Source: a virus
Taxonomy: Duplodnaviria; Heunggongvirae; Uroviricota; Caudoviricetes
Virus record (IMG/VR): IMGVR_UViG_2531839193_000007
DNA: 31,139 nucleotides
Reading direction: 5' to 3' (one strand)
In this document: one piece after another, positions 9,601 through 12,600 of the stretch
Position numbering within the stretch: the first letter of the stretch is position 1
How the letters are laid out: each line of letters starts with the position of its first letter
Made by a program: the position numbers

Positions 9601-12600
9601 GATGCACTCGATGCTAAATACACGAAGGAGTTAGCTGATGCGAAAGCTGAAAATGATGCTCTTCGGCGCAAGCTTGATAATGGTGGTCGGGTGCTCGTCA
9701 AAGGAAAATGCCCTGTGCCATCCTCAGCCGAAACCTCCAGCGCCTCCGGCATGGGCAATGATGCCACCGTCGAACTCTCTCCAGTTGCTGGACGAAACGT
9801 TCTCGGTATCCGGGACGGAATCATCAGCGACCAGACAGCATTGAGAATGCTTCAGGAGTACATCAGGATCCAATGCCTTGGGGGGTAGCGGTAATTTTAC
9901 TCATTATCCTTCAAATCAGATTCTGTTGTCAGAGGAATGGGGGAAGCTGGATTCGCAAGAGCTTTTTATGGGCAGTTTAGCTAAAAAAAGGCAACACGAA
10001 GCTAAAACTACCAACATAAAGTGCTGACCAGCTAGCAGCTGAAATCAGACTCACTGTATACACTTTCACTGGATGAAGTTGCAACATTCCTGCCACCAAA
10101 GGAGCAATATAACGCAGCACGGCGATAAAGCGCGAAGTGAAAAGTATTGACACAGAGTTATTTTGCAACTGAAGGCGAACCCGTTCTATTGTATTGGAAC
10201 GGCTTGATATTATACATGCAAGTTGAGGGATATGCCCAATTATTATACCAAGATGGTAATTAACGATAGTACCGCACCATGCGCCACTCATGACCGTGAT
10301 TCCAGCTTCCCATGGTGAAAGAGTCGTCTTGCTGACTGTAATTACAGTGGCCATCATAATTGATGCTGGTGGCAATATCGCCGAAATGAGTAAAGTGGAT
10401 TTTGTGAACGCTATTATAAAAAGAAGCCCCCATAGGCGATATGGATGAAGTACAAAATAGTTCATCAAAGCATTTATCCACTCCATCAATGTCTTTCCTT
10501 CTGTGAATTTTTCTTTGCTATTTAACCGTGATACGACTTAATTTAGGCTTAAACACCTTACATTTACAAGGTACTCCTGTGGGGGGCCCTGCCACGGAGC
10601 GTCGCAGGAGTGAGTGATGAGGAAGAATTAAAGCAACCTATTGTGACAGGCAGCGATAACAGTAAATCACAGGAAGCATAATCATGGCAAAACCGGACTG
10701 GGAGGCCATCGAATCGGCATACCGGGCCGGAGTCCTTAGCCTCCGTGATATAGGCGAGAAATACGGCGTTACAGAAGGGGCTATCAGGAAGAGGGCCAAA
10801 AAGCTTGGTTGGGCACGCAGTGGCGGTACGCAGGTTTGCAAAAATGGTACGCAAAAAAGGAAAGTGCGTACCAGCAGAAAGCCTGCCATTACTGGCCTTA
10901 CACAAAAAAGTACGCAACTAAAAACAGAATCTACACCGGATACGAAACCGATACGCGGAATGCGTACCGATCCCCCGACTAACCCATTCCAACCCGGTAA
11001 CCAGCAGGCATTAAAACACGGTGGTTATGCCCGTCGCCTTCTGCTCAAAGATGAGGTGATAGAGGACGCTAAAGCGTTGACGCTCGAGGACGAATTATTT
11101 CGCCTTCGTGCTAACAACCTTGTCGCTGCAGAGAATATTGGTCGGTGGTTGGTGTCGCTGGAAGATGCTAATGGGGACCAGGAAAGGAAGATGCTGATTG
11201 AAAATATCAGCGCCGCCGAGAAAGCAATGATGCGCAATACAGTTCGTATTGAGTCCATCGTTGGCACGCTTGCGACGGTAGGAAAAATATTTGCTGATAC
11301 AGCCTACCGCAAGGCCGCCACTGATAAGGTGTCTCTGGAGGCTGATCGTCTTCGCCGTGATGCAGGTATTGATGATGGCAATGGAGAGCGTGACCTCAAT
11401 GACTTCTACTCTGACATCCAAACCGACGCTGAATCCGGCTTTACGTAGTTTCTGGACTATGCGGGCACGTAACAAAGTGCTTTATGGTGGTCGGTCATCG
11501 TCAAAATCATGGGATGCCGCTGGCATTGCCATATTTCTGTCGAATAAATACACCCTGCGTTTTTGTTGTGCCCGTCAGATCCAGAATAAAATCGAAGAGT
11601 CGGTGTATACCCTGCTCAAAATTCAGATAGACAGGTTTGGTCTGCGGCACCGTTTCCGTATTCTGAACAACAAAATCATTAACCGGGTTACTGGCTCGGA
11701 ATTTGTTTTTTATGGATTATGGCGCAACATCGAAGAAATTAAGTCACTGGAGGGGATCGATGTGTTGTGGCTGGAAGAAGCCCACGCACTGACGGAATAC
11801 CAGTGGAAAATTCTGGAGCCAACGATCCGTAAAGAGGGTTCGGAATGCTGGTTCATATTCAACCCCGGACTTGTTACTGATTTCGTCTGGCGCAACTTCG
11901 TTGTTGATCCGCCCGAAGGCACTCTCATCCGCAAAATTAACTATGACGAAAATCCGTTTCTGTCTGACACCATGCTTAAGGTTATCGACGCGGCGCGACG
12001 CCGTGATCCGGATGGTTTTAAACATGTGTATGAGGGCGTTCCGGAGTCTGATGATGATGCGGCAATCATCAAACTGTCTTGGATAGAAGCCGCAGTGGAT
12101 GCGCACAAAACGTTAAATTTCGAACCCAGTGGAAGAAAGCGTATTGGCTTTGACGTGGCTGACAGTGGTACAGATAAGTGCGCTAACGTTTACCGTCACG
12201 GATCCGTTGTTTTCTGGGCCGACGAATGGAAGGCCAAAGAAGATGAATTACTGAAGAGCTGCCAGCGTACTTATCAGGCGGCGCTGGAGCGTGAAGCAGA
12301 TATTGTTTACGACTCTATCGGTGTTGGTGCGTCTGCCGGTGCTAAATTCTCTGAAATTAACGCTGACCGGAAGAGCGAGAACGCATACGCGCGACGTGTG
12401 AATTACCAGAGGTTTAACGCCGGTGCTGGTGTGCATGAGCCAGATGACGAGTACAACGGCATCCCCAACAAAGACTTTTTCGCAAATCTTAAGGCTCAGG
12501 CATGGTGGCTGGTGGCTGACCGTTTCAGAAATACGTTTAACGCCATTAACAACGGAGAACAGTATCCTGTGGATGAGCTGATCAGCATAGATTCTCGTTG

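What the first reader, a model, noticed from the sequence alone, without database searches (positions are those of the whole stretch)
9977..10489. DedA-family membrane protein on the opposite strand at the bor/moron position
A 170-aa multi-spanning protein with a DedA-like motif sits between the Rz/Rz1 genes and terminase, transcribed against the late operon, in AT-rich DNA. DedA proteins affect membrane homeostasis; a phage-borne copy beside the lysis cassette could modulate envelope properties or lysis timing.
Basis: partly seen in the sequence, partly recalled or inferred. Interest (0 to 1): 0.5.

Follow-up and report, generated by a model that had tools for sequence, protein, structure and literature searches.

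The report
Prophage-borne atypical DedA membrane protein
A decaying prophage carries, between its lysis genes and terminase and on the opposite strand, an intact DedA-family membrane protein of an uncharacterised subfamily, probably a lipid-carrier flippase used in envelope remodelling; the family assignment is already in RefSeq, so only the variant and its phage transfer are new.

Summary
ORF 9977-10489 (-) is real. The conserved start is the ATG at 10486, giving 169 aa. It hits Pfam VTT/DedA above the curated cut-off, and RefSeq already calls it "DedA family protein". It lies convergent to Rz/Rz1 and upstream of the terminase genes, in DNA of 41.8% GC against 50% for the window, inside an IS-riddled, truncated lambdoid prophage.

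What is new is the kind of DedA. It belongs to a tight subfamily derived from the COG0586 (undecaprenyl-phosphate flippase) clade. The subfamily keeps the two essential arginines (R119, R125). It has invariant Lys in place of the essential Glu (YqjA E39) and Ala in place of Asp51.

The subfamily is chromosomal in Enterobacter, Lelliottia, Kosakonia, Hafnia, Morganella and Arsenophonus, and prophage-linked in Citrobacter. In the Shigella/E. coli lineage it occurs only in this prophage (6 of 5426 complete E. coli genomes). dN/dS is 0.15-0.25.

The Enterobacter orthologue, identified by synteny, carries a perfect PhoP box and was induced 23-fold in an mgrB-deleted colistin-resistant mutant. The window copy lacks that box but has a PmrA/BasR-like box.

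Best reading: a moron encoding an auxiliary polyprenyl-phosphate or lipid flippase. A lysis-timing role has no support. Function and expression in Shigella are untested.

The parts
9977..10486 (-). dedA-like CDS, 169 aa from ATG 10486-10484 (TTG 10489-10487 gives the 170-aa RefSeq form); stop TAA at 9979-9977
   Evidence: ORF and sequence; Pfam VTT_dom above cut-off; dN/dS 0.15-0.25; AF2 model pLDDT 79.5. Signature K29-S-T...P39-P-A-S42 and R119/R125.
10487..10556 (-). About 70 nt of 5' region that travels with the gene. It is conserved from Enterobacter, Lelliottia and Citrobacter chromosomal copies to the phage copies, and includes the Shine-Dalgarno AAGGA (10500-10496).
   Evidence: homology with the orthologues starts about 65-70 nt before the ATG and ends about 10 nt after the stop. 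The 80% consensus is GTTGA..N4..ATTTA...TTC..TT..AAAT.G.
10537..10553 (-). Direct repeat TTTAAG-CCTAA-ATTAAG, an 11/12 match to the PmrA/BasR box YTTAAK-N5-YTTAAK. It overlaps a 9/12 PhoP-box-like reading at 10539-10555. Candidate response-regulator site; hypothesis only.
   Evidence: the only match with at most 1 mismatch in the 31-kb window; same distance to the ATG and same gap to a -10-like hexamer as the K-12 eptA, pmrR and arnB boxes; a score of 11/12 or better occurs in 1.1% of random 200-nt windows, and the box is absent from the Citrobacter and Enterobacter orthologues.
10520..10525 (-). -10-like hexamer TTAAAT, 11 nt downstream of the direct repeat; candidate only
   Evidence: Read. 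The consensus scan found no sigma-70 promoter at 9/12 or better in 10490-10683 on this strand.
9406..9888 (+). Rz (i-spanin) with embedded Rz1 (9638-9844); the last lysis gene, convergent with dedA across an 88-nt spacer
   Evidence: PF03245 at 1.1e-29 and PF06085 at 3.8e-21.
8924..9421 (+). Phage lysozyme (RrrD-type endolysin)
   Evidence: PF00959 at 1.1e-43; annotated as rrrD.
7373..7657 (+). P21-type class II holin whose 3' end runs into an IS2-like element (ORFs 7582-8487 and 8445-8855, minus strand)
   Evidence: PF04971 covers positions 1-62 of 64; rve and HTH_Tnp_1 hits identify the IS ORFs.
10684..11448 (+). 254-aa ORF at the small-terminase position, divergent from dedA across a 197-nt spacer; no Pfam hit
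   Evidence: RefSeq names it 'hypothetical protein'. The small-terminase role is inferred from position only.
11291..12802 (+). Large terminase subunit (the true start is probably downstream of 11291)
   Evidence: PF04466 Terminase_3 at 4.5e-38.

Best explanation
The gene is a moron: a self-contained cargo cassette of about 590 bp, made of a 70-nt leader plus the CDS, sitting between the lysis and packaging modules of a now-defective lambdoid prophage. It was captured from an enterobacterial chromosome.

It encodes a short inner-membrane protein of the DedA superfamily, derived from the COG0586 clade whose studied members flip undecaprenyl phosphate (Und-P) back to the cytoplasmic leaflet.

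Shown here: family membership; two predicted re-entrant hairpins; retention of the arginine pair (R119, R125) that in UptA and YqjA binds the lipid phosphate and is essential; replacement of the proton-binding acidic pair by an invariant Lys (K29) and Ala (A41); purifying selection; and repeated association with prophages.

Inferred: it translocates or scrambles an anionic lipid, most likely Und-P or a related polyprenyl-phosphate. The Arg pair, and possibly K29, would hold the phosphate. Coupling would differ from YqjA/YghB: either uncoupled and equilibrative, or with Lys as a surrogate for the protonatable site.

Inferred from the Enterobacter orthologue: the subfamily serves envelope remodelling under PhoPQ/PmrAB-type stress. 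In that state the Ara4N lipid A pathway raises the demand for Und-P recycling.

Inferred more weakly: in the lysogen the gene is expressed on its own from the 197-nt spacer, perhaps through the BasR-like box. It would then act as a lysogenic-conversion factor for the host envelope, not as part of lysis.
For: - Family: Pfam VTT_dom scores 52.4 bits against a cut-off of 33.9. The subfamily profile scores the COG0586 paralogues YabI, DedA, YqjA, YohD and YghB at 44-61 bits, against YdjX 11.6, YqaA 8.7 and YdjZ -1.3.
- Nearest outgroups are YabI-like proteins and VTT-PAP2(-LssY_C) fusions. Todor et al. cite such fusions as evidence for Und-P recycling (PMC9881974).
- Residues: YqjA E39 aligns to K29, D51 to A41, S52 to S42, and R130/R136 to R119/R125. 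K-S-T...P-P-A-S is exclusive to the subfamily, while 125 outgroup representatives have Glu at that position.
- Role of those residues in studied members.
- Fold: the AF2 model has pLDDT 79.5, with helix breaks at 36-40 and 119-123.
- Selection: dN/dS is 0.15-0.25.
- Mobility: a 78%-identical copy sits in the same lysis/terminase slot, on the opposite strand, in an unrelated GpA-terminase Citrobacter prophage. A C. freundii copy lies beside DinI, Lom and icd. Chromosomal copies occur in about 60 other species.
- Physiology: in E. hormaechei, the DedA gene N5F16_08430, flanked by MgtE and an SDR, rose 23.1-fold in an mgrB-deletion colistin-resistant mutant and 11.9-fold in a CSA-13-resistant one (PMC10434160 supplements). 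The K-variant has the same MgtE/SDR flanks in E. hormaechei B56.
- Regulation in Enterobacter: a perfect 12/12 PhoP box lies at -104 in 21 Enterobacter loci.
- Regulation in the window copy: an 11/12 BasR-like box with the geometry of the K-12 eptA and pmrR promoters.
- The exact protein is found on at least 1000 contigs, mostly Shigella flexneri, and is intact in every copy retrieved here.
Against: - The acidic pair is essential in YqjA/YghB. A protein lacking it may not transport at all, or may move a different substrate.
- No substrate, activity or phenotype is known for any member of this subfamily.
- The link to N5F16_08430 rests on synteny, not on its sequence.
- The window copy lacks the Enterobacter PhoP box. 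Its PhoP-like site scores 9/12, which is background level.
- The BasR-like box was found post hoc (about 1% of random windows score as well) and is absent from the Citrobacter relatives.
- No sigma-70 promoter passes the scan, and there are no transcription data.
- The prophage is decaying and Shigella flexneri is clonal, so an intact ORF there is weak evidence of use.
- The AF2 model is of moderate confidence, and I could not inspect its coordinates.
Confidence: 0.55

Rival explanations
1. Inert passenger. The ORF is a silent, possibly H-NS-repressed relic in a dead prophage. It looks intact only because the Shigella flexneri lineage is young and clonal, and it contributes nothing to host or phage.
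For: - The prophage is badly degraded. An IS cuts the holin, the Q-like DUF1133 ORF is truncated, the portal is split, and the structural module is cut off by IS1.
- The gene is more AT-rich than any orthologue.
- No promoter passes the scan.
- The acidic residues essential in studied DedAs are absent.
Against: - The loss of the acidic pair is ancestral and invariant across the whole subfamily, not decay in this copy.
- dN/dS between the window copy and the Citrobacter prophage copy is 0.24 over dS 0.49, so the phage-borne lineage has been under purifying selection.
- The gene is among the genes left intact in a remnant where several neighbours are interrupted.
- The leader and Shine-Dalgarno sequence are retained.
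Confidence: 0.2
2. Lysis modulator. The membrane protein tunes proton motive force or membrane state, and so changes holin triggering and lysis timing for the phage.
For: It is adjacent to the lysis cassette in two different prophages. From published work, E. coli yqjA/yghB mutants have membrane and PMF-related defects (abstracts).
Against: - It is on the opposite strand, so it is not in the late transcript.
- Orthologues are ordinary chromosomal genes next to mgtE, corA, rarD or porin genes, with no lysis genes nearby.
- In the Citrobacter prophage it sits between two lysis-gene sets, beside a truncated lysozyme. That looks like a recombination scar, not a functional unit.
- The proton-binding residues are missing.
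Confidence: 0.07
3. Superinfection exclusion or anti-phage defence. The prophage-encoded inner-membrane protein blocks DNA entry of other phages, or alters Und-P-linked surface glycans used as receptors.
For: The moron position and the opposite-strand, lysogen-type orientation are typical of exclusion genes (established knowledge of lambdoid phages). Changes in Und-P flux can alter O-antigen or ECA, which are phage receptors (inference).
Against: - There is no PADLOC hit.
- The subfamily is mainly chromosomal and conserved across genera, including insect endosymbionts (Arsenophonus) with reduced genomes. That argues for a housekeeping or physiological role.
- It resembles no known exclusion protein: the only Pfam, NCBIfam and PHROG hits are DedA-type families.
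Confidence: 0.08
4. Canonical proton-driven DedA transporter. It is functionally redundant with host YqjA/YghB and supports alkaline tolerance, drug efflux and cell division.
For: It shares clade, fold and arginine pair with those proteins.
Against: E39 and D51 are each required for YqjA function. Here they are Lys and Ala, invariantly. It also lacks the C-terminal helix of YqjA/YghB. The host already has all eight paralogues (established knowledge of E. coli/Shigella).
Confidence: 0.1

Closest known systems
COG0586 DedA proteins (E. coli YqjA, YghB, DedA, YabI, YohD; B. subtilis UptA; P. aeruginosa PA4029)
   Same: It has the VTT/DedA domain. The predicted architecture has two re-entrant hairpins. 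The R-F-x4-R...P...A-G motif of hairpin 2 is conserved, including both essential arginines. The Pro at the tip of hairpin 1 and the Ser equivalent to YqjA S52 are also conserved.
   Different: Glu39 is replaced by Lys and Asp51 by Ala, and the PGD tip becomes PPA. It is shorter (169 aa against 192-254) because it lacks the C-terminal helix. It scores only 20-31 bits against the NCBIfam DedA and UptA equivalogs, whose cut-offs are 236-300.
YabI-like proteins and DedA-PAP2 fusion proteins (for example P. aeruginosa PA4011)
   Same: These are the closest sequences outside the subfamily, at E about 1e-19. Their DedA module is about 160 aa, and they also lack Asp at the D51 position.
   Different: They keep the Glu at the E39 position. 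Many carry PAP2 and LssY_C domains that this protein lacks.
Lambda bor and other lambdoid morons downstream of Rz
   Same: Same slot, just after Rz/Rz1 and before the packaging genes. Same opposite-strand orientation, lower GC than the flanks, and autonomous cassette structure (position of bor from established knowledge).
   Different: There is no sequence or fold relationship to Bor, which is an outer-membrane lipoprotein. This is a polytopic inner-membrane protein.
Enterobacter chromosomal orthologue (E. hormaechei N5F16_08430 by synteny)
   Same: Same subfamily signature and length, at 46-53% identity, with a conserved 70-nt leader.
   Different: The chromosomal copy is divergent from mgtE and has a perfect PhoP box at -104. 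The phage copy has lost that promoter region.

Membership tests
DedA superfamily (Pfam PF09335 VTT domain) | Profile match above the curated gathering score | tested here: met
   52.4 bits against a cut-off of 33.9, E=9.2e-14, covering 3-121 of 123 positions.
DedA superfamily (Pfam PF09335 VTT domain) | Core of two re-entrant helical hairpins plus transmembrane helices | tested here: met
   The AF2 model (pLDDT 79.5, pTM 0.74) has helix-break-helix at 15-35/41-52 and at 111-118/124-134, and long helices at 58-84 and 139-168. The model is of moderate confidence. No solved DedA structure is available for comparison.
COG0586 Und-P flippase subfamily | Closer to COG0586 members than to COG0398 or COG1238 members | tested here: met
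   The subfamily HMM scores YabI 60.8, DedA 58.7, YqjA 57.8, YohD 44.5 and YghB 43.7 bits, against YdjX 11.6, YqaA 8.7 and YdjZ -1.3.
COG0586 Und-P flippase subfamily | Two conserved arginines at the tip of re-entrant hairpin 2 (YqjA R130, R136) | tested here: met
   R119 and R125 align to them. They are invariant in the 20-sequence subfamily alignment, and R or K in nearly all of the wider set of representatives.
COG0586 Und-P flippase subfamily | [quoted passage not shown] | tested here: not met
   K29 and A41 occupy these positions. The protein contains no Asp at all.
COG0586 Und-P flippase subfamily | Und-P translocation activity or complementation of flippase-deficient strains | not testable with these tools
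   This needs genetics or biochemistry.
UptA equivalog (NCBIfam NF052604 / NF052605) | Score above the equivalog cut-off | tested here: not met
   19.9 and 16.3 bits against cut-offs of 250 and 300.
Lambdoid moron (lysogenic-conversion cassette) | Insertion between conserved phage modules, opposite or independent orientation, deviant base composition, absence from close relatives of the phage | tested here: met
   It lies between Rz/Rz1 and the terminase genes on the minus strand. GC is 0.418 against 0.50. Related phages match the Rz flank but not the gene. Only 6 of 5426 E. coli genomes carry it.
Lambdoid moron (lysogenic-conversion cassette) | Own promoter and terminator, with expression in the lysogen | tested here: inconclusive
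   No promoter or terminator passes the scan. A conserved leader and a BasR-like box are present. No expression data are available.
Holin/antiholin or other lysis-cassette component | Co-transcription with the lysis genes and phage-restricted distribution | tested here: not met
   It is on the opposite strand, and most relatives are chromosomal and not phage-associated.
Known anti-phage defence systems (PADLOC) | Match to a defence-system protein model | tested here: not met
   No hit at E<=1.

The most novel reading that the evidence does not exclude
A phage-mobilised member of a new functional class of DedA proteins, with Lys at the proton site. It would flip undecaprenyl phosphate, or a related carrier lipid, without proton coupling, as part of the PhoPQ/PmrAB lipid A modification response. 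Phages would have moved it from Enterobacter/Citrobacter-type chromosomes into Shigella flexneri. There it would be rewired to a BasR-type promoter and would raise tolerance to cationic antimicrobial peptides or polymyxins, or raise the capacity for O-antigen modification.
Probability: 0.2. Interest if true: 0.65.

Novelty: new variant of a known kind. Interest (0 to 1): 0.42.

Why it matters
DedA proteins have only recently been tied to undecaprenyl-phosphate recycling and to polymyxin resistance, and the role of their conserved acidic pair in energy coupling is still inferred. A natural, conserved subfamily with Lys instead of Glu at that site is a ready-made test of the coupling model.

If the Enterobacter orthologue really belongs to the PhoPQ regulon, as its perfect PhoP box and 23-fold induction in an mgrB mutant suggest, it becomes a candidate contributor to colistin heteroresistance in Enterobacter.

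The phage-borne copies would then show that envelope-remodelling lipid transporters can spread as prophage cargo into a major pathogen. If none of this holds, the item remains a correctly annotated DedA-family ORF in a dead prophage.

Tried and rejected
- Promoter and terminator scan of 9400-11200: nothing on the gene's strand upstream, and no convincing terminator in the 88-nt spacer.
- RNA fold of the 194-nt upstream spacer: z = -0.53, so no structure beyond chance.
- Rfam on the whole window: nothing near the gene.
- PDB by sequence and by fold: no significant match, because no DedA structure has been solved.
- BFVD viral structures: only insignificant giant-virus 'SNARE associated' hits, best E = 1.3.
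- The afdb50 fold library was not available.
- The first AF2 run, with 20 sequences, was too poor to use (pLDDT 54.6). A 49-sequence alignment fixed this.
- PADLOC: no hit.
- INPHARED phages: no close copy. Distant DedA hits are mostly in unannotated or fragmentary records.
- PhoP control of the window copy: rejected as unsupported. Its site scores 9/12, which about 30% of random windows reach or exceed.
- Literature search for the protein accession: nothing found.
- I could not establish which Enterobacter DedA paralogue was the transposon hit 'dedA(Ecl)' in the colistin heteroresistance study.
- Conserved gene neighbourhood across genera: none found, so there is no operon-based clue to function.
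Full report
**1. Observation**

The ORF listing reports an ORF at 9977..10489 on the minus strand, 170 aa from a TTG that is immediately followed by ATG. The ATG at 10486 is the likelier start. All orthologues begin at the equivalent Met. One Citrobacter copy has CTG in place of the TTG. AAGGA lies about 9 nt upstream of the ATG.

The protein hits Pfam VTT_dom (PF09335, the DedA/SNARE-associated domain) at E=9.2e-14. The score is 52.4 bits against a gathering score of 33.9, over almost the full model. NCBIfam gives only sub-threshold hits to DedA and UptA equivalogs, at 31, 20 and 16 bits against cut-offs of 236-300. PHROGs gives a weak hit to an unannotated family.

The identical sequence is annotated in RefSeq as 'DedA family protein' WP_011069285.1.

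**2. Surroundings**

Pfam confirms the gene order:
- a P21-type holin (7373-), interrupted at its 3' end by an IS2-like element (7582-8855);
- a phage lysozyme (8924-9421);
- Rz (9406-9888) with embedded Rz1 (9638-9844);
- the DedA gene, on the other strand;
- a 254-aa ORF with no Pfam hit at the small-terminase position (10684-11448);
- a Terminase_3 large subunit.

The gene's GC content is 0.418, against 0.500 for the window.

The element is a wreck. The Q-like DUF1133 ORF covers only 70 of 176 model positions. The portal is split. An IS1 at 16.9-17.4 kb ends the phage DNA after the cement-protein gene. Host genes of the att-lambda neighbourhood follow: pgl and a ybhJ-type aconitase. No virion, and probably no late transcript, can be made, so any expression of the DedA gene must be autonomous.

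**3. Distribution and origin**

Megablast of the gene with its flanks finds it in only 6 of 5426 complete E. coli genomes, always in this prophage. Sequenced phages share the Rz flank but not the gene. A tblastn search of the phage collection gives only distant DedA hits. The exact protein is nevertheless on at least 1000 contigs, named mostly from Shigella flexneri.

Protein searches define a small family. A scan of one genome per species finds 64 loci:

| Group | Identity to the window protein |
|---|---|
| Shigella / E. coli | 100% |
| Citrobacter | 57-78% |
| Kosakonia | 72% |
| Lelliottia, Enterobacter (about 30 species) | 46-53% |
| Hafnia | 43% |
| Arsenophonus | 39-43% |
| Morganella | 36-38% |

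Most of these are plain chromosomal genes. Examples are positions between rarD and corA in Morganella, next to a porin in C. amalonaticus, and between mgtE and an SDR gene in Enterobacter.

The Citrobacter copies closest to the window are phage-linked. In C. youngae the gene sits in an unrelated prophage with a GpA-type terminase. It is again between lysis genes and terminase and again on the opposite strand, with a truncated lysozyme remnant abutting its 5' side. In C. freundii it lies beside dinI, a Lom/Ail gene and icd, a classic prophage attachment region.

DNA homology among these copies begins about 65-70 nt before the ATG and ends about 10 nt after the stop. The mobile unit is therefore a tight cassette of roughly 590 bp.

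dN/dS is 0.15-0.25 in all comparisons. This includes window against the Citrobacter prophage copy (0.24 at dS 0.49). The phage-borne lineage has therefore been under purifying selection.

**4. What kind of DedA**

Todor et al. divide bacterial DedAs into three groups (PMC9881974):
- COG0586, the Und-P flippases, with an acidic pair on re-entrant hairpin 1 and an arginine pair on hairpin 2;
- COG0398;
- COG1238.

A profile of the subfamily scores the five E. coli COG0586 paralogues at 44-61 bits. The COG0398 and COG1238 paralogues score below 12 bits.

In a search of 1.84 billion representatives, only 12 proteins reach E<=1e-30. The next tier, at E about 1e-19, is made of YabI-like proteins and 630-700-aa VTT-PAP2-LssY_C fusions.

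Alignment to YqjA shows the following correspondences:

| YqjA residue | Window residue |
|---|---|
| E39 | K29 |
| D51 | A41 |
| S52 | S42 |
| R130 | R119 |
| R136 | R125 |

Across the best 150 representatives, the signature K-S-T...P-P-A-S is confined to the subfamily. All 125 outgroup proteins have Glu at position 29. The arginines are near-universal. Asp at position 41 is already rare in the YabI-like outgroup. The protein has no Asp at all, and it lacks the C-terminal helix of YqjA.

Published work shows that E39, D51, R130 and R136 are each needed for YqjA function, and that S52 matters too (bioRxiv 10.64898/2026.09.20.752871). The equivalent arginines of UptA contribute to C55-P binding (PMC11474028).

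An AlphaFold2 model built on 49 sequences (pLDDT 79.5, pTM 0.74) shows the expected helix-break-helix hairpins, with tips at 36-40 and 119-123. No solved structure exists for comparison.

In summary, it is a member of the DedA superfamily, derived from the COG0586 clade, that fails one defining feature of that clade. I therefore say it probably works like a lipid-phosphate flippase. I do not file it as a canonical proton-coupled Und-P flippase.

**5. Physiological clue from the orthologues**

The 70 nt upstream of the start are conserved from Enterobacter to the phage copies.

In 21 Enterobacter loci a perfect PhoP box, TGTTTA-N5-GGTTTA, lies at about -104. Five more loci score 11/12. In random 200-nt windows a 12/12 score occurred 9 times in 3000, and those samples were drawn from the same loci that contain these sites.

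A published transcriptome of E. hormaechei 4236 lists the DedA gene N5F16_08430, flanked by an MgtE gene and an SDR gene. In a colistin-resistant derivative that had deleted mgrB, the PhoPQ inhibitor, it was induced 23.1-fold. In a CSA-13-resistant derivative it was induced 11.9-fold. The divergent mgtE rose 19.6-fold, and the arn operon was also induced (PMC10434160 text and supplements).

In E. hormaechei B56 the K-variant DedA has exactly those neighbours: CBS+MgtE on one side and adh_short on the other. By synteny, then, the subfamily's Enterobacter member is a strongly PhoPQ-responsive envelope gene.

This fits the known dependence of Ara4N lipid A modification and polymyxin resistance on COG0586 DedAs in Burkholderia, Klebsiella, Enterobacter and Pseudomonas. 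The identification is by synteny, because I did not see the N5F16_08430 sequence.

**6. Regulation of the window copy**

The cassette starts downstream of the Enterobacter PhoP box. Its remaining PhoP-like site scores 9/12, which is background level.

It does carry TTTAAG-CCTAA-ATTAAG at 10553-10537, an 11/12 match to the PmrA/BasR box. This is the only match with at most 1 mismatch in the window. It lies 11 nt upstream of TTAAAT and 67 nt from the ATG.

The bona fide K-12 boxes have the same geometry. The eptA box is at -63, the pmrR box at -61, and the arnB box at -97, each 10-13 nt from a -10-like hexamer.

The box is present in the E. coli copy but not in the Citrobacter or Enterobacter orthologues, where both half-sites read TTGAG. 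Scores of 11/12 or better occur in 1.1% of random 200-nt windows, and I looked at two motif families. This is a lead, not a finding. The generic promoter scan is negative and the spacer has no significant RNA structure.

**7. Mechanism and rivals**

I favour a moron encoding an auxiliary translocase for an anionic lipid, probably Und-P. It would use the Arg pair for the phosphate, and it would be either uncoupled or use Lys in place of the carboxylate. Its role would be in stress-induced envelope remodelling, expressed independently of the dead late operon (confidence about 0.55 for this package, lower for each inferred step).

The rivals are:
- silent relic (0.2);
- canonical proton-driven DedA (0.1), contradicted by the residues;
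- superinfection exclusion (0.08), with no PADLOC hit and a mainly chromosomal family;
- lysis-timing modulator (0.07), contradicted by strand, by distribution and by the scar-like context in Citrobacter.

**8. Novelty and score**

The family assignment is already in RefSeq, so the bare finding is known. The following were not found described in the searches made:
- the Lys-for-Glu subfamily;
- its apparent PhoPQ control in Enterobacter;
- its repeated capture by prophages and its delivery to Shigella flexneri.

I rate this a new variant of a known kind with moderate interest (0.42). It gives a concrete and cheap test of the DedA coupling model and a candidate polymyxin-response gene. Every functional statement here is inference.

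Noticed in passing
window 7373-8900: An IS2-like IS3-family element (ORFs 7582-8487 and 8445-8855, minus strand) is inserted at the 3' end of the P21-type holin gene, separating the holin from the endolysin. The lysis cassette is therefore broken.
   Followed up: partly
window 2241-2927: A full-length epoxyqueuosine reductase QueH homologue (PF02677, E=1.9e-65) sits in the early/nin region of the prophage. This is a tRNA-modification enzyme carried as phage cargo, and it is also annotated in the E. coli relative.
   Followed up: no
window 2985-3160: Rfam sok antitoxin RNA (117 bits against a gathering score of 59), that is, a hok/sok type I toxin-antitoxin locus inside the prophage.
   Followed up: no
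window 4652-4987 and 5515-6800: The DUF1133 (Q-antiterminator-like) ORF matches only positions 1-70 of 176 of its model, so it appears truncated. Just downstream lie a lone tRNA-Met (5515-5588) and an IS3-family element (5594-6798, minus strand). Related prophages carry an Ile/Arg/Thr/Gly tRNA array at this place.
   Followed up: partly
window 12802-14268: The portal gene appears split: a 58-aa N-terminal ORF (12802-12978), then an ORF at 13186-14268 that matches only positions 84-355 of the portal model. It is probably a pseudogene.
   Followed up: no
window 16130-22949: Phage DNA ends after the cement-protein gene (16130-16636) at an IS1 (16901-17404). Host genes pgl (17821-18822) and a ybhJ-type aconitase (20769-22949) follow. 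The remnant therefore lies in the att-lambda neighbourhood and has lost its tail genes.
   Followed up: partly
window 26615-26703 (-) and 23044-23114 (+): Rfam hits above gathering score to sRNA-Xcc1 (68 bits) and naRNA4 (63 bits) in the host part of the window.
   Followed up: no
L026-L054 (Enterobacter loci), about 104 nt upstream of the DedA start at 8001: A perfect PhoP box, TGTTTAAGAACGGTTTA or a close variant, lies in the mgtE-dedA divergent spacer of 21 Enterobacter loci. A second 10/12 box lies at about -67 in many of these loci.
   Followed up: yes
L003 7720-8002 (Citrobacter youngae prophage): A C-terminal remnant of an RrrD-type lysozyme, 58% identical to the window's lysozyme over 80 aa, abuts the 5' end of the DedA gene. 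An Rz/Rz1-like pair follows it, downstream of a complete second lysis cassette (two holins, a GH19 endolysin and spanins). This looks like a recombination scar left when the cassette arrived.
   Followed up: partly
L098 (C. freundii 'plasmid' NZ_CP056259.1) 1-14507: This 82-kb record, typed as a non-mobilizable plasmid, carries icd, rluE, mnmA, hflD and purB around the DedA gene. It looks like chromosomal DNA.
   Followed up: no
Top hits of the representative search (P0054, P0057, P0062 and others): Many 630-700-aa proteins combine an N-terminal short DedA module with PAP2 and/or LssY_C domains. The DedA module of these fusions is the nearest outgroup of the Lys-variant subfamily.
   Followed up: partly
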